Shown here: in pieces, positions 21,978-54,419 of the stretch
Position numbering within the stretch: the first letter of the stretch is position 1
Layout of the letters: the number at the start of each line of letters is the position of its first letter
DNA from: a virus
Taxonomy: Duplodnaviria; Caudoviricetes
Strand: one strand, 5' to 3'
IMG/VR virus record: IMGVR_UViG_2974556029_000001
Coordinates: 16,298-80,297 of that record
DNA length: 64,000 bases
Notes under the pieces: generated by a model
The model's database searches: none
What the model was told of the DNA's origin: nothing
The model's input: only the letters and a program-made list of their open reading frames with translations
Translations under genes and position numbers: made by a program

Positions 21978-22580
21978 CTAGTCCGGATAGGCGACGTCGC
22001 CCAGCCGTCTGATCCGCGGGTCGAAATGCAGGAAGGGCGCGTCGTCGGGGATGCGGTGGACGCCGCGCGCCATCGGATGCTTCGGGGTGCCGCCGGACGT
22101 GACGCCCAGGACATAGAAGGGCCGCGCGCCGCCGCGGAGGGCGTCCAGCATCCAATTCACGTGGATCCCGAACGTCAGGGCCACCTCGCCATAGGCCAGG
22201 ACCCAGGCGTCGACCTTGGGCGCCAGGGCGATCATCATGTCGACGTTCGCCTTCAGCATCTCCTTGGCGCTCGAGTCCTTTATCAGGCCGACGTTCTTGC
22301 ACCATTCTCGGCACTCGGCGGCGTCGGCGGCGACGTAGGGCACCGAGTTGACGATGACGAAGCCGCCCCAGCGTCCGCTGCGCGCCGTGAACCACCAGAC
22401 CCGGTTGAAGGTCATGTCGTTGCTGTCCTCGCCGGCCCAGGACGGATTGGCCATGGCCCAGCCCAAGATCGGCTTGTTCACGTCCCAGATGACGCTGAGG
22501 GTCAGGCGCCCCTTGCGGTCGTTGGTGAAGACCGCCTTGCGGACCGCGTCGCGCTTCGACGCTTCGAAAGCCGCGGTCAA
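21978..22580 (-). CDS. DUF1643 family protein
   Basis: W...P......ANPS.A....ND.T..R....W.G....N and V.AWG-like and G.PKHP motifs. Confidence 0.75.
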   Translation of the reverse strand: MTAAFEASKRDAVRKAVFTNDRKGRLTLSVIWDVNKPILGWAMANPSWAGEDSNDMTFNRVWWFTARSGRWGGFVIVNSVPYVAADAAECREWCKNVGLIKDSSAKEMLKANVDMMIALAPKVDAWVLAYGEVALTFGIHVNWMLDALRGGARPFYVLGVTSGGTPKHPMARGVHRIPDDAPFLHFDPRIRRLGDVAYPD

Positions 22581-23089
22581 TCCTCGTCCTCCTCACCGTC
22601 GGCCGCTTCGGAGGTCCACGCCTTCTGCAGGGCTTCCGCCTCGGTCAAGACGCGCAGGATCTCCTCAGGCGGCATGAGGTCGGTGGCCTCGCTGACGATC
22701 AGCGCGGGCCCGCCCTCGGGCATTTCTTCGCCTTCCTCGAGGGTGACGGCCTCTGGGTCGACTGGGATGCGACCGCCGGGTTTCAGGTGTTCCGGGTTGT
22801 CCGTCACGCAGGCGGCATGAACCTCGCCCACGTCTTCGTATCGGACCACCAGCTGGCCGACTTTCACATGCTGGCCGCAAGGTTCGCAGCGGCCCAGGAA
22901 GACGTCGCCGTCGATGGCGTCGCGCAGGCTACCCACCAGCGGGTTGAGGCGGGCGACCATAAGCGCGGCGATATCGTCCGGCGTCTTGGAGTTGCCGATC
23001 TCGCGCATGACGCCCTGGATCATCAGCGCGGCCGTGCTGCGCCAGTAGTGGATCTCGGCCTCAAGGGCCTCGTGGTCTCTGTCATCCAT
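22577..23089 (-). CDS. Hypothetical protein
   Basis: Fits the operon with overlaps; contains CEPC..H. Confidence 0.6.
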   Translation of the reverse strand: MDDRDHEALEAEIHYWRSTAALMIQGVMREIGNSKTPDDIAALMVARLNPLVGSLRDAIDGDVFLGRCEPCGQHVKVGQLVVRYEDVGEVHAACVTDNPEHLKPGGRIPVDPEAVTLEEGEEMPEGGPALIVSEATDLMPPEEILRVLTEAEALQKAWTSEAADGEEDED

Positions 23090-23432
23090 GGGCTTCTCCT
23101 TTCGGGTTTGCGAGGCGCAGGAGCACCTCGACGTGGCAGTCTGGGTCGTCTTCGCGGCAGAAGCATCCCAGGTCCTTGCCTGGCAACTCCTCGCAGATCC
23201 GACGGTACAGGGTGGGGTTGTCGCGCAGCACGTGCGTCTCGAACGAGCGCACGACGTCGGCCTTGACCTGAGGGCGGCTGGACCACTTGCCGGCGACCAG
23301 GTTGGTCACCGTGATGCCGGCCTTGGGGTCGTAGACGAAGGGGTTTCCGAACGGTCCTGGTCGGGTGCAGCGAACAGAGTTGGGCGGCATGCGCCAGCCC
23401 TTCACCCGCTTTATCTGAAATCGTTTCGGCAT
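23082..23432 (-). CDS. DUF4326-like protein
   Basis: RP..FGNPF and L.GKDLGCFC....CH..VL motifs. Confidence 0.7.
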   Translation of the reverse strand: MPKRFQIKRVKGWRMPPNSVRCTRPGPFGNPFVYDPKAGITVTNLVAGKWSSRPQVKADVVRSFETHVLRDNPTLYRRICEELPGKDLGCFCREDDPDCHVEVLLRLANPKGEAHG

Positions 23433-25347: not shown

Positions 25348-26075
25348 CTGCGACCGGCTCCTCTGCGATCCATCTCCTGGCGACAGTTCCATTTCGTGTC
25401 GTCGTCCAGGTCCGACTTGAAGACGATCCAGGATAGGTAGTCGTAGGGGACCTCGGCCAGCTTCTGGCCCTTGTGCTTGCCGAAGTTGAAGACGGACAGC
25501 AGCGGAGGCTCGGTGGTCCACTGGAGCATCTCGGCGACCGTGGCGTGTTGCAGAAGCGCCGACAGGATGTGGGCGGTCACGTAGGCGTCCGGCGCCGCGC
25601 GGTGCGGTGGCATGCCCTCCTCGCCGAGCGGATCGAAGAAGCCGTCAGCCTCGAACAGGTAGCGCAGGAAGCTGTTGTTGTGCTTCCGCAGCGTCGGGTG
25701 CGTCCGGCGCGCCACCTTGAAGGTGCAGATCCATGGGATCTCGCGACAGATATCGGGCGTGAGCCATTGCTGCTCGAACTGCGCGTGGTGCGCCACCAGG
25801 TAGTTCGGCGGCCGCCCGTCGATCATCAAGAAGTCGCGGATATGGTGAGTATCGCACACCGGCTTGCCGGAGAGTTCGGCGTCCGTGATGTGGTGGACGG
25901 CGCGCGCTTCGATCTTGTTGCCGCGCGGCGGGGAGAAAAGGGCGGAGCGCTTGGGCGTGATGAAGACGTCTCCGTCGTCGGCCAGCTGCAGGTCGCACCA
26001 GCCGATCTCGATGATGTCGCCGTCCGCCGGCGTCTCGTCGGTCGTTTCAAGATCGACGACGCGGAAAACTCTCAT
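25344..26075 (-). CDS. DEDDh 3'-5' exonuclease (exodeoxyribonuclease X-like)
   Basis: VVDLETT, VAHHAQFE, PHRAAPDA, C-terminal FGKHKG...EVP.DYL.W. Confidence 0.85.
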   Translation of the reverse strand: MRVFRVVDLETTDETPADGDIIEIGWCDLQLADDGDVFITPKRSALFSPPRGNKIEARAVHHITDAELSGKPVCDTHHIRDFLMIDGRPPNYLVAHHAQFEQQWLTPDICREIPWICTFKVARRTHPTLRKHNNSFLRYLFEADGFFDPLGEEGMPPHRAAPDAYVTAHILSALLQHATVAEMLQWTTEPPLLSVFNFGKHKGQKLAEVPYDYLSWIVFKSDLDDDTKWNCRQEMDRRGAGRR

Positions 26076-26470
26076 GAGCAGATCCTCTTCCTGACGGCCT
26101 CGGCGGAGATCTTCATGATCACCGGGAGGCCAGATTGTCCCGCCAGGTAGGCGGCGTTCAGCTCGCGACACAGGCGGGCCGGGTTGATGGTCAGGGCGCC
26201 CCAGAACTCCCACTCGCCGACCTTGTGCTGCGAGGTCTTGGAGTAGAGGTGGTGGTCCGGGCAGAGCGGCGTGGTGCGCCAGTCGTGCGGCTTCTCGGAC
26301 TTCCCCGTGATCGACAGGCCCTCCTCGGCCCAGGCCATGCGTAGGTGGGCGACGTGGACGCGCCGGTTGATCACGCCGTTTATCGCGCAGGCGATGCACG
26401 GAAGGCCGGCGATCCAGCCCTTGTAATCGCCGTCGACCTCGCGCGGCTGGCGCTGTCGCAGATCAGCCAT
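26072..26470 (-). CDS. DUF968/Ref-like HNH-type nuclease
   Basis: LPC.AC......AH........K..D..T.PLC..HH. Confidence 0.65.
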   Translation of the reverse strand: MADLRQRQPREVDGDYKGWIAGLPCIACAINGVINRRVHVAHLRMAWAEEGLSITGKSEKPHDWRTTPLCPDHHLYSKTSQHKVGEWEFWGALTINPARLCRELNAAYLAGQSGLPVIMKISAEAVRKRICS

Positions 26471-42883: not shown

Positions 42884-43297
42884 ATGGAAATGCCCCGCCC
42901 CGAGAACACCAAGCGCCTGCGCTTCATGCGCACCATCGAGACCGGCCTCACCGGACGCGAGGCGCTGATCCGCGCCGAAGTGATCATGCTGGTGTCGGCC
43001 GACTACGACGGATCGGCCGCGGCGATCGCGATCGACATTGGCGACATGAAGGCGCCGAAGATCGATCTCGTGCCCATGCCCGACTGGTTCGAGCTTCTCG
43101 GTCACGGCCTGGCGCTCGTCGGCGACGAAGAACTGGCGGCCGAGACCGCCACGCTCTGCGATGACATGGACGAGGTCGAGCGCGGACTGAACGCGCCCAA
43201 GCTGCCCGACGTCATCCAGAACGTCCTCGACGGAAAGGTGAGCCTCAAGCCGAAGGATCGCCTCCTGGGCTCGTCCGGGATGTCGGTTAAGCAATGA
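42884..43297 (+). CDS. Hypothetical protein
   Basis: AAGGAG SD; start MEMPRP. Confidence 0.55.
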   Translation: MEMPRPENTKRLRFMRTIETGLTGREALIRAEVIMLVSADYDGSAAAIAIDIGDMKAPKIDLVPMPDWFELLGHGLALVGDEELAAETATLCDDMDEVERGLNAPKLPDVIQNVLDGKVSLKPKDRLLGSSGMSVKQ

Positions 43298-43707
43298 CGC
43301 CTCAGAAGCAGATCTTCCGGCACCGGCCCGAGAACGGCGTCTACGGCGATTGCTATCGCACCGCCCTGGCCTGCATCCTCGACATGAAGCCGGAAGATCT
43401 CCCCCATGAGCACCGGGTGTTCGGCGACAATGAACAGCGGCAATTCTACGACGCGGCCCTTAAGCCTTTCGGCTTCAAGATCGCCCTGTTCGCCTGGACC
43501 TGCAGCCTGGAGGAGGTTTTCGAGGTCATGAAGATCTCGAACCCCGGCATCCACTACATCCTCTCTGGATGGAGCCGATCCAACTGCAACCATTCTGTCG
43601 TCGCACTCGAGGGCGAGATCGTTCACGACCCCTCGCTGACAAACGCCGGAATCGTCGGCCCTTGCGACAACGGTGCCTACTATGTCGAGTTGCTGGTGAG
43701 GGCCTGA
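43294..43707 (+). CDS. Hypothetical protein with papain/transglutaminase-like Cys-His-Asp pattern
   Basis: GDCYRTALACIL...NHSVVALEGEIVHDP. Confidence 0.5.
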   Translation: MTPQKQIFRHRPENGVYGDCYRTALACILDMKPEDLPHEHRVFGDNEQRQFYDAALKPFGFKIALFAWTCSLEEVFEVMKISNPGIHYILSGWSRSNCNHSVVALEGEIVHDPSLTNAGIVGPCDNGAYYVELLVRA

Positions 43708-44423
43708 TGGCGGGCTCGGAGGCAGAAGAGCGCATCCGGGCCCTAGTCGTGGCGGCCATGCGCCGCCGGTGGCCGGACGCCAGGATCATCCACGAGCTCG
43801 TCCTGGACCAGGGCGTGGTGCGGATCGACCTGGCGGCCGTCACCGAGGACCATATCGCCTTGGCCGAGATCAAGAGCGAGCGCGACGTCCTCACCCGCTT
43901 GCCAAAGCAGCTCTCGCTGGCCACGAAGATCGCTGGCGAGACCTGGCTCTGCACCACGCTGAAGCACGCCGGCGAACTGGATCACATGCGATGGGACCGA
44001 AAGGCGCCGGAGCTCAGCGCGGCTCTGCGACACACGGTTCTGATGTTCGAACAGGACGGGTTGCTGAAGCCGAGACATGCGGGCGGCATGGACGCGCCAG
44101 TCCCGGACGTCCGCTCGGTCCTGATGATGTTGTGGGCCGCCGAGCTGCAGCTGATCGCCAAGCCCTTCGGCGGGTGGTCCAAGCCGCGCTTCTGGTGCAT
44201 GCGCGCGATCGTGGAGAACATGAGCGGCCGCGAGATCCGGCGCGCCGTTTGTCAGGCCCTGCGCCGGCGAACCTTCGCCCGGGCCGATGATCCGATCGGC
44301 GTCTTGCCGCCGGAGGAGAAGGTCAAGGCTCAGAACCTATTCCGAGATCCTGCGCCGGCGCCGGACTTCGATTGGCAGGCCTGGCGAGAACAGGTCGCCC
44401 TCCTGGGCCAGGCTCAATCCTGA
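43707..44423 (+). CDS. PD-(D/E)XK nuclease-like protein (sce7726/MmcB-like)
   Basis: IHEL......RIDLAAV......EIKSERD...RL..Q. Confidence 0.6.
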   Translation: MAGSEAEERIRALVVAAMRRRWPDARIIHELVLDQGVVRIDLAAVTEDHIALAEIKSERDVLTRLPKQLSLATKIAGETWLCTTLKHAGELDHMRWDRKAPELSAALRHTVLMFEQDGLLKPRHAGGMDAPVPDVRSVLMMLWAAELQLIAKPFGGWSKPRFWCMRAIVENMSGREIRRAVCQALRRRTFARADDPIGVLPPEEKVKAQNLFRDPAPAPDFDWQAWREQVALLGQAQS

Positions 44424-46270
44424 TCCCAGAAGGCCAGGTCGCTGATCTGGCCGCGGACCACCTCGAGTCGCCCGCGCAGGACGCGAATAGCGCTCATGGT
44501 CGCCGAGGTGACGGCGTCCTGGTGCAGGGCCTCAAGCGCCCGTTCAGCGTCCGTCACTTCGATCACCGCCTCGTAGCACCGCGACCAGATCTCGCGCGCC
44601 TTATCCGGATCGTAATTCGGATCCAGGAACGGCGGATTGATTGCGCCGGCCGCGCGCTCGGCCGCCTTGACGATGTCGCCGAGCCCGTTCATCCGCGCCA
44701 GGTCCAGGAACGGCGTCTGGTCGTGCATCCCGTCGACCAGCGCCAAGAACAGGGCCATGGCCATGGACTTCAGGTCCGGATCTCCGAAGCCGACGCGCTC
44801 GAGCGCCTCGTCATAGCGGCTCGCCCAGGACGGATTGGCCGCCGCGCCGAGTGCCACGGCCGCATAGAAGGGGTTGAAGGGCCTCATGCCCCTCTGCTGC
44901 GCCGGAGGAAGCTTCGGGGCTTCCTGGCGTCTCCACGGGGCGTCGCCGGCCTTTGTCGGTGAGGACCTGGCGGGAGCTGTCGGTCGCGGGAAGAGCTTCT
45001 CCAGGCGCCCCAGGAGATCATCTCGATAGGCGCGGCCCAGATCCGCGTCCGAAATCTGGTCGGCCGCCGCACGTAGGCGCTTCTTCAAGTCGACCTTCTG
45101 CTCCGGCGTCTGCAAGGGCATGGCGTCGCGCTCTCGCACGAACAGCGCCTCGACGAACGGGACGGTGCGCTGCAGCTGAGCGCGCAGGATCTCCGGCCCC
45201 TTGTCCTTCAGGATGTCATCCGGATCCTTGCCGCCCACCAGGTGGGTGAAGCGGAACGATCGGCCAGACCTGAGCATGGGGAGACTCTTGTCGATCGCAC
45301 GGCTGGCGGCGCGCTGGCCGGCCTTGTCTCCGTCGAAGCATAGGGTCGGCTCTGGATGCAGCCGCCACAGCGTCTCCATCTGCTCCTCGGTCAGGGACGT
45401 GCCCATGGCGGCGACGGCCGGCACGTTGGCGCGCTGACAGGCGATGACGTCCATGTACCCTTCGACCACCACCATCGGCGTCTTGGTCGCGCCGGCGGCC
45501 TGGCCGGCATGCAGAAGCCTCCGGGCGTCGGGAAGGCCGTAGAGCACGCGGCTCTTCTGGAAGATGTCCGTCTCGGGGCCGTTCAGATACTTCGCCTTCG
45601 CGCCCTTCTCCATCGCGCGGCCACCGAACGAGACCAGACGCCCACGGCCGTCGGCAATCGGGAACATGATGCGATCGCGGAATCGATCGTATGGCGGTGA
45701 GCCATCCTCAGGGCGGATCAGCAGGCCGGCGTCGACCAGGGCGTCCGGATGCGCGCCCTTGGCCACGAGGTAGTCCTTCAGGGCCGTGCGGCCGCCTGGC
45801 GCGTACCCGATCCCGAACCGTTTCCATTCCGCCTCAGGAAGGCCGCGCTTCTCCAGGTAGGCGCGCGCCGCCTCGCCGGCCGGGCGTCTTAGCTCCGCCT
45901 CGTACCAGGCGGCCGCGAGGTCGATCCAATCCGAGAGAGTGGCGCGCCGCCGCTCAGTCTCCACGGTCTTCTGGTCCGGCTCAGGCATGGCCATCCCGGC
46001 CTCGCCCGCCAGCCGCTCGACCGCCTCGTGGAAGGTCAGGCGCTCGGTCTCCTGGAGGAAAGAGATCAAGTCCCCGTGCTTCCCGCTGCTGAAGCAGTGA
46101 TAGAAGCCCTTGTCGTCGTTCACGAAGAACGAGGGGCTCTTCTCCTTGGTGAACGGCGACAGGCCGGCGTACTCGCGGCCTTGGCGCCGGAGCTTCACGC
46201 TCTTGCCGATCACGTCGGACGGGCGGAGGCGGCTCTTGAGCTCCTCCAGGAAACTGTCAGGGATGCGCAT
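44414..46270 (-). CDS. dnaG: DNA primase, bacterial type
   Basis: Zn-finger GLSPF..EK.PSF...YHCF, DRFRDRIMFPI, FGGRA, KYLNGPET, VVEGYMDV, CFDGD.AG, GKDPD. Confidence 0.95.
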   Translation of the reverse strand: MRIPDSFLEELKSRLRPSDVIGKSVKLRRQGREYAGLSPFTKEKSPSFFVNDDKGFYHCFSSGKHGDLISFLQETERLTFHEAVERLAGEAGMAMPEPDQKTVETERRRATLSDWIDLAAAWYEAELRRPAGEAARAYLEKRGLPEAEWKRFGIGYAPGGRTALKDYLVAKGAHPDALVDAGLLIRPEDGSPPYDRFRDRIMFPIADGRGRLVSFGGRAMEKGAKAKYLNGPETDIFQKSRVLYGLPDARRLLHAGQAAGATKTPMVVVEGYMDVIACQRANVPAVAAMGTSLTEEQMETLWRLHPEPTLCFDGDKAGQRAASRAIDKSLPMLRSGRSFRFTHLVGGKDPDDILKDKGPEILRAQLQRTVPFVEALFVRERDAMPLQTPEQKVDLKKRLRAAADQISDADLGRAYRDDLLGRLEKLFPRPTAPARSSPTKAGDAPWRRQEAPKLPPAQQRGMRPFNPFYAAVALGAAANPSWASRYDEALERVGFGDPDLKSMAMALFLALVDGMHDQTPFLDLARMNGLGDIVKAAERAAGAINPPFLDPNYDPDKAREIWSRCYEAVIEVTDAERALEALHQDAVTSATMSAIRVLRGRLEVVRGQISDLAFWDQD

Positions 46271-46281
46271 GTCAGGGGTAC

Positions 46282-47130
46282 TCAGGTGTGGGTGAACAGG
46301 TCCTTCTGCGGCATGTTGGCCACAGCGGACGGATTGATCCATAGTACCTCGGTCCGCGGGCGCGCACCGTCGGCCAGGGCCTGGCGCTCGATACGCCGCC
46401 ATCCAGACAGACGCTCGTCATAGAGCGCATGCGGATAGCCCGAGAGCACGACCATGCCCTTCAGAGACAAGAGAAGATCCAGGAGGGCCTGGTGTTGCCC
46501 ATCCGTCAGCTCGTGCTTGTACGAACCGCCGCCGGGGCGCCTGGCGACGCGCGTGCGCGTGGCGTGCAGATAGGGCGGGTCGACGTAGTGCAGGGTCTCC
46601 GGAGTGTCATGCTGGCGCATGACCTCGAGTCCATCCTTGCACTCAATCGTGATGCCCTGCAGGCGCGCCACGGCCTGGCCCAGGGCCGCGCCATAATTGA
46701 CCCAGTCGTGCGCCGGCGTCGTGCCGTTCCGATTGCTGTTGGACCGAAAGCCCGTCCGATAGGGGCTGGTCGGTCCGTCGGACCCGTGGCCCATGAAGGA
46801 TCGCACCACAAGGCGGCGCGCCCGTTCGACGCGACAGTCGCATGGGTCATAGGCCTCGTTGAACTCCTCACGCGCGAACGGTGTCAGCTGCAGCATCCGC
46901 TTCAGCTGGCCGGCCGTGCGGCGGTTTCGCAGAACGCGGAACAGGTTGACGACGTCCTTGTCGAGGTCGTTGTAGACCTCGGAGTAGCAGCGGTCCTTGC
47001 GCATCAGCACCGAGGCCGCGCCGCCGAAGGGCTCGACGTAGATCCGATGGGGCGGGAAGTTCTCGATGATCCAGGGCGCCAGCATCCACTTTCCGCCGTG
47101 CCAACGAAGGACGGGTCGATCAACGCTCAT
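46282..47130 (-). CDS. Dam-like (D12 class) DNA adenine methyltransferase
   Basis: RWHGGKW, YVEPFGGAASV, YND.D, YVDPPY. Confidence 0.9.
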   Translation of the reverse strand: MSVDRPVLRWHGGKWMLAPWIIENFPPHRIYVEPFGGAASVLMRKDRCYSEVYNDLDKDVVNLFRVLRNRRTAGQLKRMLQLTPFAREEFNEAYDPCDCRVERARRLVVRSFMGHGSDGPTSPYRTGFRSNSNRNGTTPAHDWVNYGAALGQAVARLQGITIECKDGLEVMRQHDTPETLHYVDPPYLHATRTRVARRPGGGSYKHELTDGQHQALLDLLLSLKGMVVLSGYPHALYDERLSGWRRIERQALADGARPRTEVLWINPSAVANMPQKDLFTHT

Positions 47131-47411
47131 TCCGGCGGATCTCCTCGCCAACCACAAACCCGGCAGGCCGGAACCTCGGACATGCACGAAGAGCAAGGCG
47201 CGGACCTGAAGCAGCTGCATCCCCCAAGACCAGGGTCTCTTTCCAGCCACAGCATGCCTACGCATCCTGGACGGCCGCAGATGTCACCTTCTTCATCCCC
47301 GAAGGCTTTAGCGGTGTGGCGACCGAGCAGGATGTTGAGCATCCAACTAGCTGAGCGATATTTGCGCGCGGCTCTCTTTCTGCGCCGATTTGTGGATCTC
47401 AGGTTTCGCAT
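47127..47411 (-). CDS. Cys-rich zinc-finger-like protein
   Basis: C....C, CSC....PC..C, C..CGW. Confidence 0.5.
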   Translation of the reverse strand: MRNLRSTNRRRKRAARKYRSASWMLNILLGRHTAKAFGDEEGDICGRPGCVGMLWLERDPGLGGCSCFRSAPCSSCMSEVPACRVCGWRGDPPE

Positions 47412-47734
47412 CGAAACTTCTCCTGCTTGCGCGCCATGATGCCGGCTCGGCGCATGGGCGCGTCATAGGTGTTGTGGCACCGCTGGCACCAGGACTTCAG
47501 GTTCGGCCTGTCGCCGGGGACGCCGTTGTCCTCCGGCTGGTGGTTGAGGTGCGCTGTGGTCAGGACCACGATCGACCCCGTCACCGGGTGGGGCTTGCCG
47601 TTCTCCGCCCGGCAGTCGGGATAGGCCGGCGATCCCTCGCACCGGTTTCCGGCGCGCTCCCGGACCTCGAGAACGATCACCTGCCACTCGGCGCGTGGCG
47701 GGTAGCGCTTCTTGTTCTCCGCGCGGATGGGCAT
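47399..47734 (-). CDS. HNH endonuclease-like protein
   Basis: RCE....C, VLT.AHL.H...DN...NL..WCQ.CH..YD. Confidence 0.75.
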   Translation of the reverse strand: MPIRAENKKRYPPRAEWQVIVLEVRERAGNRCEGSPAYPDCRAENGKPHPVTGSIVVLTTAHLNHQPEDNGVPGDRPNLKSWCQRCHNTYDAPMRRAGIMARKQEKFRCET

Positions 47735-48005: not shown

Positions 48006-48581
48006 TCAGACCGCCTTCTCGATGATGAAGATCTCGCCCGGTTCGTCGACCATGACCATGAAGCGCGCCGCCGGGTGGTAGTAGCCCTTGCTGCGGATCA
48101 TGGCGGCCAGCTGTTCCCGATCGGGGATCTGCATGCCGGCGGGAATGTTGAACCAGTCGACGTTGAGGAAGCTGATCGGATTGCCGCCGCCGAAACAGAA
48201 GCCGGCCGTCAGCTTGGGCGGCAGCTGATAGACGCGGACGGGGATGTCCTTCTCGGCGATCGTGAAGACGGGCGCGGCCGGCGGGATGATCTTCAGCTCC
48301 TGGAGCTTCCTGATCACAGCCTTGGCGGCGATGCGGGACGTCCAGTCCTGATCGATGCTGTCCTGAATGGCCTCGTCGATATCGTCCTCGAAAGGCGACC
48401 AGTCGATAGGCTGGCTCAAGATCTCATCGGCGATCACGCCCAGGTCTAGCTCCTGGATATCGACGTAGAGGTAGACGGTCTTCGGACCATCTTCCCCACC
48501 TTCGAAGGCGGTGGCCCCGATCTTGGATGCGCTTTCGGACTCGATGGCGTCACGGATCGCTTTGATGATGATGTCGCGCAT
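48006..48581 (-). CDS. Hypothetical protein
   Basis: Start re-called at MRDIIIK. Confidence 0.5.
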   Translation of the reverse strand: MRDIIIKAIRDAIESESASKIGATAFEGGEDGPKTVYLYVDIQELDLGVIADEILSQPIDWSPFEDDIDEAIQDSIDQDWTSRIAAKAVIRKLQELKIIPPAAPVFTIAEKDIPVRVYQLPPKLTAGFCFGGGNPISFLNVDWFNIPAGMQIPDREQLAAMIRSKGYYHPAARFMVMVDEPGEIFIIEKAV

Positions 48582-48583
48582 GA

Positions 48584-49129
48584 TCAGTGCACCCCGCGAT
48601 AGTAGGCGGCCGGACGCCGCATCAGCAGTTCGTGCATGGCGGCGAGAAGGGCGTTGGCGCGATCGGCGCGCGCCGTCGTGTCTTCCAGGGTCGTCAGCTC
48701 GCTCATGAGAGAGACGTGGGGCGCCGCGTGGATGATCCTTTGCCGCGCATAGGCGTCGGCCAAGGGTTCGAACCTGGTCTTGCGGCCGCCGGCGAAGTGG
48801 TAATGCCGGACGCGGCATGCCACGCCCGACCTGGCCAGGACAGAGGCCGTCATCTCGGATTGCTCTTCGCCCGCCACCGCGACGAGATCCGCGTCGTACT
48901 CGATCACGGCCTGGCAGATGTGCTGGGCCCAGATCGCCGGGTTCTCGTAGCAGCCGCTCAGATCCGCGAGCACGTAGCCGAGGCCCGTGACCTGGCCGAC
49001 GCCGGCGACAACGATGCCGCACACGTCCTTGGGATAGAACGGCGGGTCGATGCCGATGACGACCCGATCCAGCTTCTCGTGGATCTCCGTCTCCCAGCGG
49101 AAGAAGATGGGATAGCCGAACATGTTCAT
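48584..49129 (-). CDS. Stand-alone degenerate terminase large-subunit nuclease (Terminase_6C-like) domain
   Basis: LDRVVIGIDPP...CGIVVAG...GYVLAD...P..WA.....Y.AD....K..R.EPL...Y....I.H...DR..A matches the recalled GTA-type TerL C-domain; own GAGGAG SD. Confidence 0.65.
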   Translation of the reverse strand: MNMFGYPIFFRWETEIHEKLDRVVIGIDPPFYPKDVCGIVVAGVGQVTGLGYVLADLSGCYENPAIWAQHICQAVIEYDADLVAVAGEEQSEMTASVLARSGVACRVRHYHFAGGRKTRFEPLADAYARQRIIHAAPHVSLMSELTTLEDTTARADRANALLAAMHELLMRRPAAYYRGVH

Positions 49130-49131
49130 GG

Positions 49132-50445
49132 TCAAATCTCCTCGTCGCCGGGGAACGGCATGCGCCCGACGTCGAGGACCTTGCCGCAATCCAGGCAGGT
49201 CTCGACCGGCACTCCGTCTCCGGTGGGGTACTGGCGCACAGACTCGTGGGCGCAGCTGTCCTGCATCTCCTGGATGACCTCGTCCTTGGCGGCGTCGGTC
49301 AGGGTGATGCGGTGCGGCTGCACGTCGATCGGCGAGACGATGTCCAGGCCCCATTCCTGGCGGTAGGCGTCCAGGGCCTTGTGGGCCACGTTGAGCTCGT
49401 CGAACTCACCCCAGTCCGCGACGTCGCCGTTCTTGTGGTAGCCGGCCACGCCCTGGCTGTCAGAGGTGATGGCCACGAAGCCTTCGACGGCCTCGACCAG
49501 CAGCGCCGTGGCGTCCACCTGGTGCATGGGGAGCGCAGAGCCGCTGGGCTTGGTGGCCTGCTTGATGCGGATCTTGTCGATCGCGCCCCAGACGCGGGCG
49601 AGTTCGGCCTCGGCCGCCTGCTGCATGTCGACCATCTGGCCCTTCAGGTAGACGGCCAGAGTCAGCAGCACGCCGCCCGCTTCCTGGGTGATGTGGCCAG
49701 CCGGGCGCGCGGCGACGTATCGGACCAGCGCCGGGATCCGGGCGAAGTCGTAGCCGGCCGCCTGCAGCAGCTCGAGCACCTCCTCGAGGAACCGATCGCC
49801 GCGCTCCACGGGGTCGGTCATGACCTCGGGCGGGAAGCAAGCCGAGCCCCAGTCCCAGACGCGATCCTGGAAGCCTTGCGGCGCGCCCAGACGCTTCAGG
49901 GCGTCCCGAGCAATGCCGGACGCCTCGCCAGGCGGCCAGTCCTCCAGTTCCGTCCAGCTGTGGCCGTCGCCGTGATGGCGCACGACTCGGCCCTCATGAA
50001 TGGACTCGAGGGCCTGGCGCAGACCGACGATCCTGTCGTGCGAAACGCTGTTGGCGCGCAGCAGATCGCCATTCCGCCGACGCAGGCTCGCCACCTCCTC
50101 GCGCAAGGCCTTCACCTCGTCGACCAGCGGGATGATGTTCGCCGGCTGCGCGGCCGCCATGTACTCGGTCAGCTGGCGGCCGTTCTCGTCCCAGTCCAGG
50201 CCATAGCCGCCATCTTCGTCGGCGTGCATCTCGCGTTGCAGCTCGACCAGATCGCCGTTCTCGACGCCGCCGATGACGCGCGGCGTCGTCTTTCCGGGCG
50301 CGGCGTCACAGAGCAGGACGTAGGACAGGAAGTCCGGGCTGCTGTCGACCTTGAGGTGGTCGTTCTCCCAGACGCCGGGCGCGATCGTCTGGGCACGCTG
50401 CGCCTTGGCGCGCAGCTCCACCAGTTCCTTGATGGTCATGGCCAT
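49132..50445 (-). CDS. Multidomain protein with MazG-like/dNTP pyrophosphatase-like domain
   Basis: FQ.RV..W...CF......ERGDRFLEE..EL.Q..G...RP.G...QE.GG...TL..Y; Ead-like N-part. Confidence 0.55.
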   Translation of the reverse strand: MAMTIKELVELRAKAQRAQTIAPGVWENDHLKVDSSPDFLSYVLLCDAAPGKTTPRVIGGVENGDLVELQREMHADEDGGYGLDWDENGRQLTEYMAAAQPANIIPLVDEVKALREEVASLRRRNGDLLRANSVSHDRIVGLRQALESIHEGRVVRHHGDGHSWTELEDWPPGEASGIARDALKRLGAPQGFQDRVWDWGSACFPPEVMTDPVERGDRFLEEVLELLQAAGYDFARIPALVRYVAARPAGHITQEAGGVLLTLAVYLKGQMVDMQQAAEAELARVWGAIDKIRIKQATKPSGSALPMHQVDATALLVEAVEGFVAITSDSQGVAGYHKNGDVADWGEFDELNVAHKALDAYRQEWGLDIVSPIDVQPHRITLTDAAKDEVIQEMQDSCAHESVRQYPTGDGVPVETCLDCGKVLDVGRMPFPGDEEI

Positions 50446-50917: not shown

Positions 50918-51286
50918 TCAGGGGTTGACGAGGATCGCGAAGACCTCGACGGGGTTGGGACCGAAGAACTCATGGGTGATCGTCTGGCGCTCATAGCCGC
51001 GCCAGGGCAGTTCCAGGCGCGTCTCGCCCAGCACGCCGCCGCCGGCCGGATAGCCCTTGGTCAGGACGATCCGGTCATATTCGCGGCCCTCAAGCTTCTT
51101 GACGAAGTAGGGCGTGACCAGGCGGTATTCGAACCGCTTGGTGCCGGCCGCGATCTCGTCGAAGTAGCGGTGCTTCATGGGCAGGGTCAGGGTGCGCATG
51201 GGCTTATTCTCCAGGCCCAGATGCTGGACGAAGATGTCCGAAACCATCTGGGCCACCTTGGGGTTGGTCAGGTCAGGAATGGCCAT
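50918..51286 (-). CDS. ASCH domain protein
   Basis: L.L.M...YF..I..G.K..EYR......KKL....YD.I....GY. Confidence 0.7.
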   Translation of the reverse strand: MAIPDLTNPKVAQMVSDIFVQHLGLENKPMRTLTLPMKHRYFDEIAAGTKRFEYRLVTPYFVKKLEGREYDRIVLTKGYPAGGGVLGETRLELPWRGYERQTITHEFFGPNPVEVFAILVNP

Positions 51287-52073
51287 CGGGATCGATGCCG
51301 AGTTCGCCGAAGATCTTCTCCATCTCCACTTCCGCGTCGGTGGGCTGGTTTCCGTGGCCGGAAATGGCTTTCCAAGCCAAGATCAGCGCCTTCTTCATCC
51401 GAGGTGCGGCGGCCATCAGGTCGGCGTGTTGGCGGACCTGCTGTGGGGTCAGGTCGCCGTTGTGCACGGCCACGCCGACGGCCAGGCCATCATGGCGCAG
51501 GATGTTGATGTCCTGGACATGCTCCTCGGCGTCCTGAGGCCCGGTGTGCCAGCCATCCTCGGTCGGCGTCACGTTGCCCTTGAAGAAGGTGACGCCCGGC
51601 GCCGAGATCTCGACGCCGCCGATCTTGGCGCTGAACATGATGTCCCTGATGGCGAAGTCGCGAGGCTCTTCCTTCTCGACGTCGAACGCCCGGAGCATCC
51701 ATTGGTCCTCTGGGTGCCATTCGGTCTTGCCCCACCAGACCGCGATCGGGCGCACCTTTCGGGGCGTGATCTCGCCGCGGTAGTTGCGGTAGACGAACTC
51801 GAACGGTGGCCAGGCGCGCGTCGGCGTGCCGTTGATCTCCGGGTCCACGAGGACGCGGATCGGGTGGATGGTGCCGTCGCCGAGCCATTCGACCGACAGG
51901 CAAGCCCCGTTGAAGAGCATGCCCAGTTCGATGTCTTCCGGCGCCCAGCGAGTATGGGTGCACACGACGTCGGCGGCCATGCCGACCACCGGCCCCTGGG
52001 CGAAGTGGAGCGGGCCGTAGCTCTGGTCCAGGCCAGCGGTGCCGGTCTTGCCCTTGAAGTTGATGGATCGCAT
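51273..52073 (-). CDS. WYL-domain protein
   Basis: F.Y.NYRGE...R.V.P....W....WHP..QW.L.AFD.EK...R.FA..DI. Confidence 0.7.
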   Translation of the reverse strand: MRSINFKGKTGTAGLDQSYGPLHFAQGPVVGMAADVVCTHTRWAPEDIELGMLFNGACLSVEWLGDGTIHPIRVLVDPEINGTPTRAWPPFEFVYRNYRGEITPRKVRPIAVWWGKTEWHPEDQWMLRAFDVEKEEPRDFAIRDIMFSAKIGGVEISAPGVTFFKGNVTPTEDGWHTGPQDAEEHVQDINILRHDGLAVGVAVHNGDLTPQQVRQHADLMAAAPRMKKALILAWKAISGHGNQPTDAEVEMEKIFGELGIDPDGHS

Positions 52074-52084
52074 CGGAGGTCCTT

Positions 52085-52321
52085 TCAGGCGTCCAGGTCG
52101 ATGTTCGACCAGTCCAGGGGGGCGGGCCGCGCGTGGTGGGCGAACGTGCCCTCCAGCGTGGCGCGCGGGTTGATGATCAGGCATGCGACCCAGGCCAGGA
52201 GGCCGACCGCTGCTCGCAGGATCCAGATCGCGAGCTGCAGCAGCAGGATCACGCCCTGGACCAGGTAGGTGAAGAAGAAGACGGCGATCAGCAGAAAGCC
52301 GAGGACGGCGAGCTCACCCAT
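52085..52321 (-). CDS. Small membrane protein
   Basis: Hydrophobic stretch of about 45 aa. Confidence 0.55.
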   Translation of the reverse strand: MGELAVLGFLLIAVFFFTYLVQGVILLLQLAIWILRAAVGLLAWVACLIINPRATLEGTFAHHARPAPLDWSNIDLDA

Positions 52322-53033: not shown

Positions 53034-54419
53034 CTACAGGCGCAGCGGCATCAGGACGGCGGTGCGGCCGGGATGGTCCGGGAAGTCGACGCGCACCGGC
53101 TCGTTCTCGGCGCCGACGATCATTTCGGCGCGCTTGGCCTTCGTCACGGCGTCCAGGAAGTAGGTGACGTTGATGCCGATATCGACGCCGGTTCCAGCAG
53201 CGCCAGCCGCCGGGATGTAGGCCTCAGCCTCGCCGCCTTCATGGCTCTTCACCTTCACCGACACGCGCTCTTGGCTGAGGCTGAAGTGGCCGGCGCGCGA
53301 CTTCTCCTTGTTGACCGAGGCGACGCGGGTGACGACTTCGGCCGCGGCGGCCGTGTCCTCGAGTCGCACGATGATCCGCTTGTCCCGGTCGCCGGGGATG
53401 ACGCGGCCGTAGTCCGGATAGGAACCGTCGATGACCTTGGTGATCATCATGGTCTGGTCGAACTCGAAGGTGATCCGGATGCCGGCCTTCGGATCGTCAT
53501 AGGCCTCGGAGGGCTTGGAGTAGACCATGCTGACGTTGCCGGTCTTGGGCATGTTGCGCAGGAGCCAGTTCACGCCCTTGCGCGGGATAATCACCCCGTC
53601 CTGGACCATGGCGCGATCGCCGGTGATGGGCGGCGCGAGGGTGCAGTCGCGGAACAGGCGGTGGCCGTCGGTCGAGACCATGGTCAGCTGGATGCCGTCC
53701 GCGCCGGTGGTCAGGTGGATCCAGACGCCGTTGAGGTAGAAGCGCGTCTCCTCCGTCGAGATGCCGTCGACCACGAACTTCAGCTTCTCGCGCAGCTCAT
53801 GCACCGGCATGTTGAAGCTGGCCACCGGCTTCAGCTTCGGCGTGGAGGGATAGTCGCCGGCGTCCAGGACCGTGAGATTGTGCTGCACGCCGCCGAAGCT
53901 CAGGTTGAGGCGGTTGACGCCCAGGTCCAGAGCGATCCCACCCCGCGCGCCCTGGAGCGCGCTCAGCAGCAGCTTGCCGGGGACGCAGACGTCCATCTCC
54001 GGCGCGTCGCAGTCGAACAGGACCTCGACGATCTCCATGTCCAGGTCGGTGCCGGAGATCATCATGCGCCCTTCCGCGACACGGATGCGCACGTATTGGA
54101 GGATCGGGATCGACCTGGTCTCCAGCACGCGGGTCACGCGCTGGACCGCCGCGTACATGTTCTGAGCGTTGAAGATCCCGGCCTGGGCTTCGACCGGCTT
54201 CTCAGCCTTCCGCTTGGCCGGCTTGGGAGCGGCCTCGCTGCTGGTCTTCGGCTTCGGCTTATGGCCGCCGCGCCGCACCACGTCGGCCAGCTGGTCGGCG
54301 GCGGCCTGGTAGGCTTCCGGGGCGCCGGTGGTGACGGCGAACTCGTAGGCGGCCAGAGCACCGGCGGCGGTGATCACGGCGGTCGGCGCAATGCGGGCGT
54401 TGGTAGGGGTCAAGGTCAT
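53034..54419 (-). CDS. dnaN: DNA polymerase III beta sliding clamp with N-terminal extension
   Basis: IPIL..V, SGTDLD, ISTEETRFYLNG, VSTDGHRL, IIPRK, KVIDGSYPDY.RVIP, IG.N..Y.LD, AVLMPLR. Confidence 0.9.
   Translation of the reverse strand: MTLTPTNARIAPTAVITAAGALAAYEFAVTTGAPEAYQAAADQLADVVRRGGHKPKPKTSSEAAPKPAKRKAEKPVEAQAGIFNAQNMYAAVQRVTRVLETRSIPILQYVRIRVAEGRMMISGTDLDMEIVEVLFDCDAPEMDVCVPGKLLLSALQGARGGIALDLGVNRLNLSFGGVQHNLTVLDAGDYPSTPKLKPVASFNMPVHELREKLKFVVDGISTEETRFYLNGVWIHLTTGADGIQLTMVSTDGHRLFRDCTLAPPITGDRAMVQDGVIIPRKGVNWLLRNMPKTGNVSMVYSKPSEAYDDPKAGIRITFEFDQTMMITKVIDGSYPDYGRVIPGDRDKRIIVRLEDTAAAAEVVTRVASVNKEKSRAGHFSLSQERVSVKVKSHEGGEAEAYIPAAGAAGTGVDIGINVTYFLDAVTKAKRAEMIVGAENEPVRVDFPDHPGRTAVLMPLRL

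What the first reader, a model, noticed from the sequence alone, without database searches (positions are those of the whole stretch)
48584..49129. Stand-alone, apparently catalytically degenerate terminase nuclease domain in the middle/early arm
Seen: a 181-aa gene with its own SD, far from any packaging gene, among DNA-metabolism genes. It aligns by eye over its whole length with the C-terminal RNase-H-like domain of GTA-type large terminases (IDPP, CGIVVAG, YVLAD, P..WA, K..R.EP, DR..A). Against the consensus as I recall it, the first Asp is kept, but the AEVNQGG Glu position reads Ala and the terminal DRVDA reads DRANA. Established: Avs/STAND defence NTPases recognise large terminases, and alphaproteobacteria carry GTA-type terminases. 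Inference: a dead terminase domain made before packaging could be a decoy against terminase-sensing immunity, or a dominant-negative inhibitor of competing phage or GTA packaging. This is my best candidate for an undescribed system.
Basis: partly seen in the sequence, partly recalled or inferred. Interest (0 to 1): 0.78.

Follow-up and report, generated by a model that had tools for sequence, protein, structure and literature searches.

The report
Dead stand-alone terminase nuclease domain
Caulobacter phage Sansa carries, among its DNA-replication genes, a small separate gene that copies only the DNA-cutting half of a phage packaging enzyme but has lost the residues needed to cut; a few uncultured phages keep similar genes, so it probably works by binding, though its job is unknown.

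Summary
Window 48584-49129 (minus strand) is a real, tightly coupled 181-aa gene. It passes Pfam Terminase_6C (30.6 bits, cut-off 22.6) and folds with high confidence (pLDDT 92) into a large-terminase (TerL) nuclease domain (Z 17-18 to D6E and G20c TerL nucleases, Z 11 to RuvC).

The genome is Caulobacter phage Sansa. The gene was annotated in 2015 as a "DNA packaging protein", so its existence is not new. Sansa has a complete TerL elsewhere that is only 25% identical, so this is neither a split TerL nor a recent duplicate.

Seven positions are at least 85% conserved in 214 TerL sequences, five of them at 99-100%: E86, N88, G90, G91, K116, D159, W163. All seven are changed here (A, E, Q, S, R, N, A). 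In G20c TerL, single substitutions at the residues I equate by fold position with E86 and D159 nearly abolish cutting.

Eight other short, divergent stand-alone relatives occur on uncultured contigs. Several sit in early, methylase or replication-recombination neighbourhoods. One phage has an unrelated Mu-type TerL.

My best reading is a non-catalytic binding module (pseudo-nuclease). The target is unknown. No earlier scan finding covers this gene on other DNA.

The parts
48584..49129 (-). Stand-alone 181-aa TerL-nuclease-fold gene (P0001). It is identical to UniProt A0A0K1LM17, 'DNA-packaging protein', of Caulobacter phage Sansa.
49138..49143 (-). GAGGAG ribosome-binding site, 8 nt upstream of the ATG at 49129. 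It lies inside the 3' end of the upstream gene.
   Evidence: Read directly from the sequence
49132..50445 (-). Upstream gene of unknown function (phrog_14118, E 3e-143). Its stop is 2 nt before the target's ATG. It has no ATPase or terminase similarity. The start is approximate.
48006..48581 (-). Downstream 191-aa gene of unknown function. Its ATG lies 2 nt after the target's stop. No family or fold was found for it.
47399..47734 (-). HNH endonuclease (phrog_1571) on the same strand, two genes further downstream.
53034..54419 (-). Sliding clamp (DNA polymerase processivity factor), near the head of the same minus-strand gene block.
44414..47265 (-). DnaG primase and D12-class adenine methylase at the distal end of the same minus-strand block.

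Best explanation
The gene encodes a complete TerL nuclease (RuvC-like, RNase H fold) domain that stands alone. It runs from the ATPase-nuclease linker to the C-terminal arm. It belongs to a small, old clade derived from GTA-type terminases and is not a copy of Sansa's own TerL.

It has lost the metal-B ligand (E86 to A), the main metal-A ligand (D159 to N) and the invariant N88, G90, G91 and K116 around them. I therefore expect that it cannot carry out canonical two-metal DNA cleavage.

It keeps the fold, the first Asp (D28), D56, W67, R119, Y127, H134, D156/R157 and the C-terminal arm. My reading is that it acts as a binding module made together with the replication and recombination proteins. 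Most likely it occupies DNA that RuvC-like or terminase nucleases would otherwise engage, such as branched or concatemeric replication-recombination intermediates, and does not cut it.

Shown here: the gene, its fold, the loss of invariant residues, the existence of relatives, and its context. Inferred: catalytic death (about 0.75), action by binding, and DNA as the target.
For: - **Fold.** The AF2 model has pLDDT 92 and pTM 0.89. It gives Z 17-18 over 155-164 aligned residues (rmsd 2.5-3.0) to D6E and G20c TerL nucleases, and Z 10-11 to RuvC and poxvirus resolvases. Foldseek agrees.
- **Active site.** In 214 TerL or TerL-fragment sequences, E86, N88 and K116 are 100% conserved, D159 99%, G90 and G91 97%, and W163 85%. 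P0001 has A, E, R, N, Q, S and A at these positions. Twenty-eight further TerL fragments are all canonical apart from a few aromatic replacements of W163.
- **Mutational precedent.** By position in the fold, E86 follows strand 4 and D159 lies in the last helix. These correspond to G20c D347 and D429. The D347N and D429N single mutants have the lowest nuclease activity (PMC5389553).
- **Relatives.** Nine short representatives all lack N88. Six of the nine lack E86. The four nearest (P0001, P0004, P0011, P0151) all lack both E86 and K116. They group at SH-aLRT 90 and 95, and a single clade of all nine is not rejected (AU p 0.89).
- **Independent, intact ORFs.** These relatives sit on different contigs: L003, L004, L005, L006/L007 and L008.
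- **Context.** In Sansa the gene lies between the clamp and HNH/Dam/DnaG, in a genome that also has RecT, a DUF3799 exonuclease, DnaB and RNase H. In L008 the relative lies between a clamp and DUF3799/AAA_24. In L005 and L006 it lies among methylases.
- **Not tied to the resident terminase.** P0001 is 25% identical to Sansa's TerL but 33-41% identical to other TerLs. P0056 has no detectable similarity to the Mu-type TerL 6 kb downstream on its own contig.
Against: - No biochemical or expression data exist. Timing is inferred from gene neighbours only.
- Each of the four nearest relatives has an acidic residue within 1-3 positions of 86 (E88/E89, D89, E85, D85), on what is a flexible loop in G20c. 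Residual or altered catalysis is therefore not excluded.
- Two relatives, P0047 and P0114, keep acidic residues at all four sites (P0114 with Glu for Asp at 156), so the wider group may not be uniformly inactive.
- DNA as the binding target is a guess. The net charge (-4, pI 5.9) is no more basic than that of TerL nuclease domains.
- No conserved neighbouring gene points to a pathway.
- P0011 sits next to a peptidase M15 gene rather than replication genes.
- Residue equivalence with G20c rests on secondary-structure position, not on a residue-level superposition.
Confidence: 0.45

Rival explanations
1. Packaging modulator or dominant-negative. The dead domain keeps the TerL linker and the conserved C-terminal arm. 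It binds in trans to a portal or to the ATPase domain of a GTA-type terminase: the Caulobacter host's GTA, a competing phage, or Sansa's own TerL. This would block or retune DNA cleavage and packaging, for example by turning a double-strand cutter into a nickase while the 2,127-bp terminal repeats are made.
For: - The N-terminus starts at the TerL linker motif, and the C-terminal 'RP....R..' arm is kept (R178 in 7 of 9 stand-alones, 96% of TerLs).
- In D6E TerL the conserved C-terminal arm locks the ATPase domain and may contact the portal (PMC5727402 abstract).
- P0001 is closer to generic GTA-type TerLs than to Sansa's own TerL.
- The host C. crescentus CB15 has a GTA, and Sansa's TerL is among the viral TerLs nearest to RcGTA-like TerLs (PMC7947584).
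- Sansa packages DNA with 2,127-bp direct terminal repeats (verified).
- The same genome holds a small TerL-ATPase-like paralogue.
Against:
- In L005 the resident TerL is of an unrelated subtype, so a role as partner of the phage's own TerL is not general.
- The best identity to any TerL is only 41%, so it is not a recent mimic of a specific competitor.
- The W163 of the last helix, conserved in TerLs, is lost.
Confidence: 0.2
2. Still an enzyme. This would be a TerL-derived stand-alone nuclease, such as a resolvase, debranching enzyme or nickase, with a rearranged active site built from D28, D156 and a relocated carboxylate (E88/E89). It would fill the Holliday-junction resolvase role for which Sansa has no recognisable gene.
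For: - It has a RuvC-like fold and lies in a recombination-proficient genome (RecT plus a DUF3799 exonuclease).
- No RusA, RuvC, endonuclease VII or VRR-NUC family was found among the roughly 50 Sansa ORFs scanned.
- D28 is invariant, and D156 is kept in 6 of the 9 stand-alones.
- Acidic residues lie next to position 86 in all four nearest relatives.
- Relatives P0047 and P0114 keep acidic residues at all four sites.
Against: - The replacement acidic residues are at different positions in each relative, which does not look like a conserved new site.
- K116 and N88 are also lost.
- The equivalent single substitutions inactivate G20c TerL.
- L005 and L008 already carry endonuclease VII or VRR-NUC genes beside their copies.
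Confidence: 0.15
3. Anti-defence decoy or sponge. The protein would be made early, bind terminase-sensing Avs/STAND sensors without allowing them to oligomerise, and so shield the late TerL.
For: - The best Foldseek PDB hit is the TerL chain of the Avs3-TerL complex 8dgc, which reflects shared fold only.
- SeAvs3 binds the TerL nuclease domain in its native fold, and KpAvs2 can be triggered by some nuclease domains.
- Early accessory regions of phage genomes often hold counter-defence genes (general knowledge).
Against: - Isolated TerL domains and T4 vs.8 activate Avs sensors, so an early copy would be expected to fire the alarm sooner.
- EcAvs2 needs the ATPase domain, and SeAvs3 reads active-site residues and bound ATP, all of which are absent here.
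- No PADLOC match and no literature precedent.
Confidence: 0.06
4. Functionless relic of an old terminase gene that is drifting towards loss.
For: - Catalytic residues are gone.
- The group is rare: 9 of the best 150 representatives from 1.84 billion proteins.
- Sansa has no close relatives in the viral, metagenome or cultured-phage collections searched.
Against: - Intact ORFs of matching length persist at dN 0.6-0.9 per site in six separate contexts. pN is below pS in all 15 pairs, though dS is saturated.
- Codon usage is native, and the gene has an RBS and tight coupling to its neighbours.
- The model is confident and compact.
- Thirteen positions are invariant across eight of the stand-alone proteins.
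Confidence: 0.07

Closest known systems
C-terminal nuclease domain of GTA-type (Terminase_6N + Terminase_6C) large terminases, such as Sansa's own TerL and RcGTA-like TerLs
   Same: It has the same Pfam family, the same fold and the same domain boundaries, running from the linker to the C-terminal arm. It shares D28, D56, W67, R119, Y127, H134 and D156/R157.
   Different: It has no ATPase domain and is encoded about 55 kb from the packaging genes. E86, N88, G90, G91, K116, D159 and W163 are all replaced. It is only 25% identical to the resident TerL.
Solved TerL nuclease domains of phages G20c/P74-26 and D6E (PDB 5m1f, 5tge, 5oe8)
   Same: These are the best structural matches: Z 17-18, 153-164 aligned residues, rmsd 2.5-3.0.
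   Different: Those domains are active two-metal nucleases whose D294, D347 and D429 are each needed for activity. Here the counterparts of D347 and D429 are Ala and Asn.
RuvC-type Holliday junction resolvases (Thermus and Deinococcus RuvC, poxvirus resolvases)
   Same: They share the RNase H-like fold (Z 10-11), are of similar size (about 160-180 aa), are stand-alone, and in phages are encoded in recombination modules. From memory (Saito et al. 1995), RuvC mutants in any of the four acidic residues still bind junctions but do not cut them.
   Different: The match is weaker than to TerLs. The acidic tetrad is incomplete, and dimer formation could not be tested.
phi29 gp16 C-terminal 'vestigial nuclease' domain (from memory, Mao et al. 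2016; not checked here)
   Same: It is a terminase nuclease fold that has lost catalysis and serves as a nucleic-acid or partner-binding module.
   Different: That domain is still fused to the packaging ATPase and works in packaging. It did not appear among the 50 best PDB matches listed.
T4 vs.8, a stand-alone paralogue of the TerL ATPase domain (PMC13601566)
   Same: It is a phage-encoded single-domain paralogue of one half of TerL with unknown function. Sansa also has a small TerL-ATPase-like ORF.
   Different: vs.8 copies the other domain, keeps its Walker motifs, and activates Avs2 when co-expressed.

Membership tests
Pfam PF17289 Terminase_6C (TerL RNase H-like nuclease domain) | Profile score above the curated gathering cut-off over the whole domain | tested here: met
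   30.6 bits against a cut-off of 22.6, covering profile positions 1-154 of 155
Pfam PF17289 Terminase_6C (TerL RNase H-like nuclease domain) | TerL nuclease fold | tested here: met
   The model has pLDDT 92. It gives Z 17-18 to D6E and G20c TerL nucleases, with every solved TerL nuclease ranking above RuvC.
Functional large terminase nuclease | Acidic metal ligands after strand 1, after strand 4 and in the last helix (D28, E86, D159), plus invariant N88 and K116 | tested here: not met
   D28 is kept, but positions 86, 88, 116 and 159 read A, E, R and N. These are 99-100% conserved in 214 TerLs.
Functional large terminase nuclease | Fusion to, or adjacency with, a Terminase_6N packaging ATPase | tested here: not met
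   The upstream ORF has no ATPase or terminase similarity. The only complete TerL is at genome 8077-9564.
RuvC-type Holliday junction resolvase | Four acidic catalytic residues (D, E, D/H, D) | tested here: not met
   Only D28 and D156 remain.
RuvC-type Holliday junction resolvase | Homodimer that binds four-way junctions | not testable with these tools
Stand-alone degenerate TerL-nuclease group (defined here: P0001, P0004, P0011, P0151, P0056, P0047, P0108, P0114, P0033) | 158-201 aa, no ATPase domain, start at the linker or strand 1, loss of N88 | tested here: met
   For five members beside P0001 the contigs show flanking ORFs with no ATPase domain. The contigs of P0108, P0114 and P0033 were not examined.
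Anti-Avs decoy or other anti-defence protein | Binds an immune sensor and suppresses its activation | not tested
   Needs co-expression assays. There is no PADLOC match, and published data point the other way.

The most novel reading that the evidence does not exclude
Sansa and a scattered set of uncultured phages make, together with their replication proteins, a catalytically dead copy of the terminase nuclease domain that acts in trans on packaging machinery. It could poison GTA-type terminases or portals of the host's gene transfer agent and of rival phages. Alternatively, it could pair with the phage's own TerL so that double-strand cutting becomes nicking while the long terminal repeats are made. 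Together with the TerL-ATPase-like mini-ORF in the same genome, this would make 'terminase pseudo-domains' a class of trans-acting packaging regulators.
Probability: 0.2. Interest if true: 0.8.

Novelty: new variant of a known kind. Interest (0 to 1): 0.5.

Why it matters
Terminase nuclease domains are known only as the cutting half of the packaging motor. Here the domain persists on its own, without its catalytic residues, in several unrelated phage backbones and away from the packaging genes. That suggests it has been reused for a second job, as happens with pseudo-enzymes. Sansa is a cultured phage of the model bacterium Caulobacter crescentus CB15, which also makes a gene transfer agent with a related terminase. 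Deletion, pull-down and nuclease assays could therefore settle quickly whether the protein acts on DNA intermediates, on packaging or on immunity. It also adds to recent evidence (T4 vs.8, and Sansa's own ATPase-like mini-ORF) that phages carry single-domain terminase paralogues of unknown role.

Tried and rejected
- **Split or frameshifted TerL: rejected.** The upstream ORF is phrog_14118 with no ATPase signal, and a complete 6N+6C TerL lies elsewhere.
- **Recent duplicate of Sansa's TerL, or recent capture from a GTA: rejected.** Identity is 25% to the phage's own TerL and at most 41% to any TerL among 1.84 billion representatives.
- **Closer relatives: none found.**
  - IMG/VR gave none, and the six-sequence alignment was too divergent to seed a scan.
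  - JGI metagenome contigs gave none.
  - In cultured phages, P0001, P0047 and P0151 hit only full TerL genes.
  - The third word-index search returned only canonical TerL fragments.
- **PDB by sequence:** no hit with the nuclease part.
- **PADLOC:** no match for the target or its neighbours, apart from a weak WYL hit on 51273-52184.
- **Conserved neighbour gene across the six contexts:** none. One gene shared between Sansa (43294-43707) and L006 is not adjacent in Sansa. PHROGs found nothing shared among flanking ORFs.
- **dN/dS:** dS is saturated, so the values are only weakly informative.
- **Charge or pI as a clue to DNA binding or mimicry:** no different from TerL domains.
- **Promoter and terminator scan of 44-56 kb:** at chance level.
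- **Similarity between the mini-ATPase ORF and P0056:** BLAST E 6e-7, but not supported by profile comparison (probability 0.2), so I dropped it.
- **Downstream 191-aa protein:** no family, and a poor Atlas model.

Full report
**The gene is real.** Window 48584-49129 on the minus strand translates to 181 aa without a stop. Codon-position GC is 0.66/0.45/0.88, as in the genome's confident genes. A GAGGAG box lies 8 nt before the ATG. The upstream gene stops 2 nt before that ATG, and the downstream gene starts 2 nt after the target's stop. The gene is therefore one cistron in a tightly packed minus-strand block. A simple scan found no terminator-like site on that strand between 47.2 and 54.4 kb, at chance level overall.

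**Identity of the genome.**
- The window is bases 16298-80297 of an 80,297-bp virus record with terminal repeats.
- The best BFVD match of my model is a 181-aa, 100% identical protein, A0A0K1LM17, 'DNA-packaging protein [Caulobacter phage Sansa]'.
- The Sansa genome announcement gives the same length, 80,297 bp including a 2,127-bp terminal repeat. I confirmed that the first and last 2,127 bases are identical.
- The announcement says that besides portal, TerL and TerS, 'a DNA packaging protein' of the Terminase_3 superfamily was annotated (PMC4599082).
- The gene and its terminase kinship have therefore been on record since 2015. Nothing further has been said about it in the papers I could search.

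**Family and fold.**
- Pfam Terminase_6C scores 30.6 bits (cut-off 22.6) over the whole profile. PHROGs 38 and 979, both TerL, also match.
- With an alignment of 144 relatives, AlphaFold2 gives pLDDT 92 and pTM 0.89.
- All solved TerL nuclease domains match at Z 14-18. D6E and G20c score 17-18 with 153-164 aligned residues at rmsd 2.5-3.0. RuvC and poxvirus resolvases follow at Z 10-11, and Foldseek agrees.
- The protein begins at the linker that joins the ATPase and nuclease domains in TerLs and ends with the TerL C-terminal arm. It is a whole domain, not a fragment.

**Not a split TerL and not a recent copy.**
- Sansa has a complete TerL with both Terminase_6N and Terminase_6C at genome 8077-9564, and it carries the canonical motifs.
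- The ORF upstream of the target has no ATPase similarity.
- The target is 25% identical to Sansa's TerL but 33-41% identical to many other GTA-type TerLs.

**Degenerate active site.**
- I aligned 214 TerL or TerL-fragment sequences recovered by an exhaustive search of 1.84 billion representatives and by a word-index search.
- In these, D28, P29, G38, D56, E86, N88, K116, R119 and P122 are 100% conserved. D159 is 99% conserved, G90 and G91 97%, and W163 85%. Twenty-eight further fragments are all canonical apart from a few aromatic replacements of W163.
- The Sansa protein keeps D28, P29, G38, D56, R119 and P122. It reads A86, E88, Q90, S91, R116, N159 and A163.
- In the model, position 28 ends strand 1, position 86 ends strand 4, and positions 156-159 open the last long helix. 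These are the places of D294, D347 and H427/D429 in the G20c TerL nuclease. There, the D347N and D429N single mutants have the lowest activity. D347 holds metal B, and D294 is expected to bridge both metals (PMC5389553).
- The Sansa protein thus carries, naturally, two changes that are each inactivating in a studied TerL, plus the loss of four other invariant positions nearby.
- This residue equivalence rests on fold position. I had no access to coordinates for a superposition.

**Stand-alone relatives.**
- The nearest relative is P0004, 180 aa and 40% identical from the first to the last residue. It is a separate ORF between two other ORFs on a 1-kb metagenome contig.
- Seven other short proteins of 158-201 aa share the loss of N88: P0011, P0151, P0056, P0047, P0108, P0114 and P0033.
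- E86 is replaced in six of the nine proteins (by A, C, A, A, Y and T). K116 is lost in all four of the nearest group.
- A quick maximum-likelihood tree joins P0001, P0004, P0011 and P0151 (SH-aLRT 90) and the other five (SH-aLRT 95).
- A tree holding all nine together is not rejected and scored better than the free quick search (AU p 0.89). Long branches make this soft evidence.
- The replacements differ from member to member. This looks like relaxed constraint on the catalytic positions rather than a new conserved site. However, each of the four nearest members has some acidic residue within three positions of 86.
- P0047 and P0114 keep acidic residues at all four sites (P0114 with Glu for Asp at 156), so the wider group may include active enzymes.

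**Context of the relatives.**
- P0056 lies on a 27-kb contig among small ORFs and two DNA methylases. It is 3 kb upstream of an endonuclease VII gene and 6 kb upstream of that phage's own TerL, Mu-type portal and Mu F. It has no detectable similarity to that TerL.
- P0047 lies on a 63-kb contig between a sliding clamp and a DUF3799 exonuclease/AAA_24 recombination set.
- P0151 lies among small ORFs downstream of an MT-A70 methylase.
- P0011 follows a peptidase M15 gene.
- In Sansa the block holds the clamp, unknowns, the target, an HNH nuclease, a Dam methylase and DnaG. The genome also has RecT, a DUF3799 exonuclease, an ExoX-like exonuclease, RNase H, DnaB and an initiator.
- No recognisable RusA, RuvC, endonuclease VII or VRR-NUC was found among about 50 ORFs scanned.
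- No neighbouring gene is shared across the contexts.
- Intact ORFs of matching length at dN 0.6-0.9 per site argue for selection on the fold. Formal dN/dS is uninformative because dS is saturated.

**How it most likely works.** The data support a pseudo-nuclease: the TerL/RuvC-like scaffold and much of its conserved surface are retained, while the two-metal centre is dismantled. The gene travels with replication, recombination and methylase genes and is independent of the resident terminase type. I therefore favour a binding role on DNA intermediates over a role in the phage's own packaging motor. By analogy, RuvC active-site mutants bind but do not cut junctions (from memory, Saito et al. 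1995). I hold the 'what it is' part at about 0.95, catalytic death at about 0.75, and DNA as the target at about 0.4. The combined statement is scored 0.45.

**Rival readings.**
- *Trans-acting packaging modulator.* This is plausible because the linker and the conserved C-terminal arm are kept. In D6E TerL that arm locks the ATPase domain and may touch the portal (PMC5727402 abstract). In addition, the host has a GTA with a related terminase (PMC7947584).
- *Rearranged active enzyme.* This cannot be excluded.
In PMC13601566, EcAvs2 is triggered by isolated ATPase domains and by the TerL-ATPase-like T4 protein vs.8. KpAvs2 is triggered by some nuclease domains. SeAvs3 reads active-site residues and ATP. 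A TerL-like domain made early would more likely trip such sensors than blind them, and this one lacks the features that SeAvs3 reads.

**Limits.** The stand-alone group is small. The ESM Atlas lists several clusters of 50-98 proteins of 178-201 aa named as terminase family proteins. These may be further stand-alone forms, but I could not retrieve them.

**Verdict.** The gene itself is already annotated. Its dead active site, its conserved stand-alone relatives and their non-packaging context appear to be unreported. Its function is open and directly testable in a model host.

Noticed in passing
Whole window (genome record G000, 80,297 bp): The genome is Caulobacter phage Sansa (GenBank KT001913 according to PMC4599082). 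The first and last 2,127 bases are identical, matching the published terminal repeat. The window's last ~2.1 kb is therefore the right-hand repeat.
   Followed up: yes
Outside the window: genome 3168-3602 (+), L009:3168-3602: A 144-aa ORF resembles the Walker B region of Sansa's own TerL ATPase domain (31% over 77 aa, pairwise E 6e-6). It has no Pfam hit. An earlier agent called it a dead mini-copy of the packaging ATPase. Sansa thus carries degenerate single-domain paralogues of both halves of TerL. A second ORF at 4960-5328 gave only marginal matches to TerLs.
   Followed up: partly
window 43294-43707 (+) and L006:9214-9696: A 137-aa protein with no Pfam family is 37% identical (E 1e-29) to a gene two ORFs upstream of the stand-alone nuclease homologue P0151 on an unrelated metagenome contig. 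It is the only other gene shared between the contexts.
   Followed up: no
window 49132-50445 (-): The gene just upstream matches phrog_14118 at E 3e-143. Its central ~120 aa are 40-53% identical to hypothetical proteins of many phages (Ralstonia phiRSL1, Pseudomonas, Xanthomonas, Burkholderia, Caulobacter, Microcystis). This is a widespread domain of unknown function.
   Followed up: partly
window 47399-47734 (-): An HNH endonuclease (phrog_1571) lies in the same gene block, three genes downstream of the target. HNH proteins assist TerL cutting in HK97-like phages (from memory), so a link to the dead nuclease domain is conceivable. HNH genes are not consistently near the relatives.
   Followed up: no
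window 21978-22592 (-) and L005:1780-2355: DUF1643 proteins occur both in Sansa and on the contig that carries relative P0056. Sansa also has a DUF4326 protein at 23082-23432 and a weak Ref-like RecA-dependent nuclease match at 26072-26470 (19.5 bits, below the cut-off).
   Followed up: no
window 51273-52184 (-): A 303-aa protein of unknown function has a weak PADLOC match to a WYL domain (E 3.6e-4) and matches phrog_3715.
   Followed up: no
Not in the window: ESM Atlas clusters: Several clusters of 50-98 viral or bacterial proteins of 178-201 aa are named 'phage terminase large subunit family protein'. Only 10-48% of their members reach PF22530 or PF17289. Short terminase-nuclease-only proteins may be more common than the nine found here, unless these are gene fragments.
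   Followed up: no
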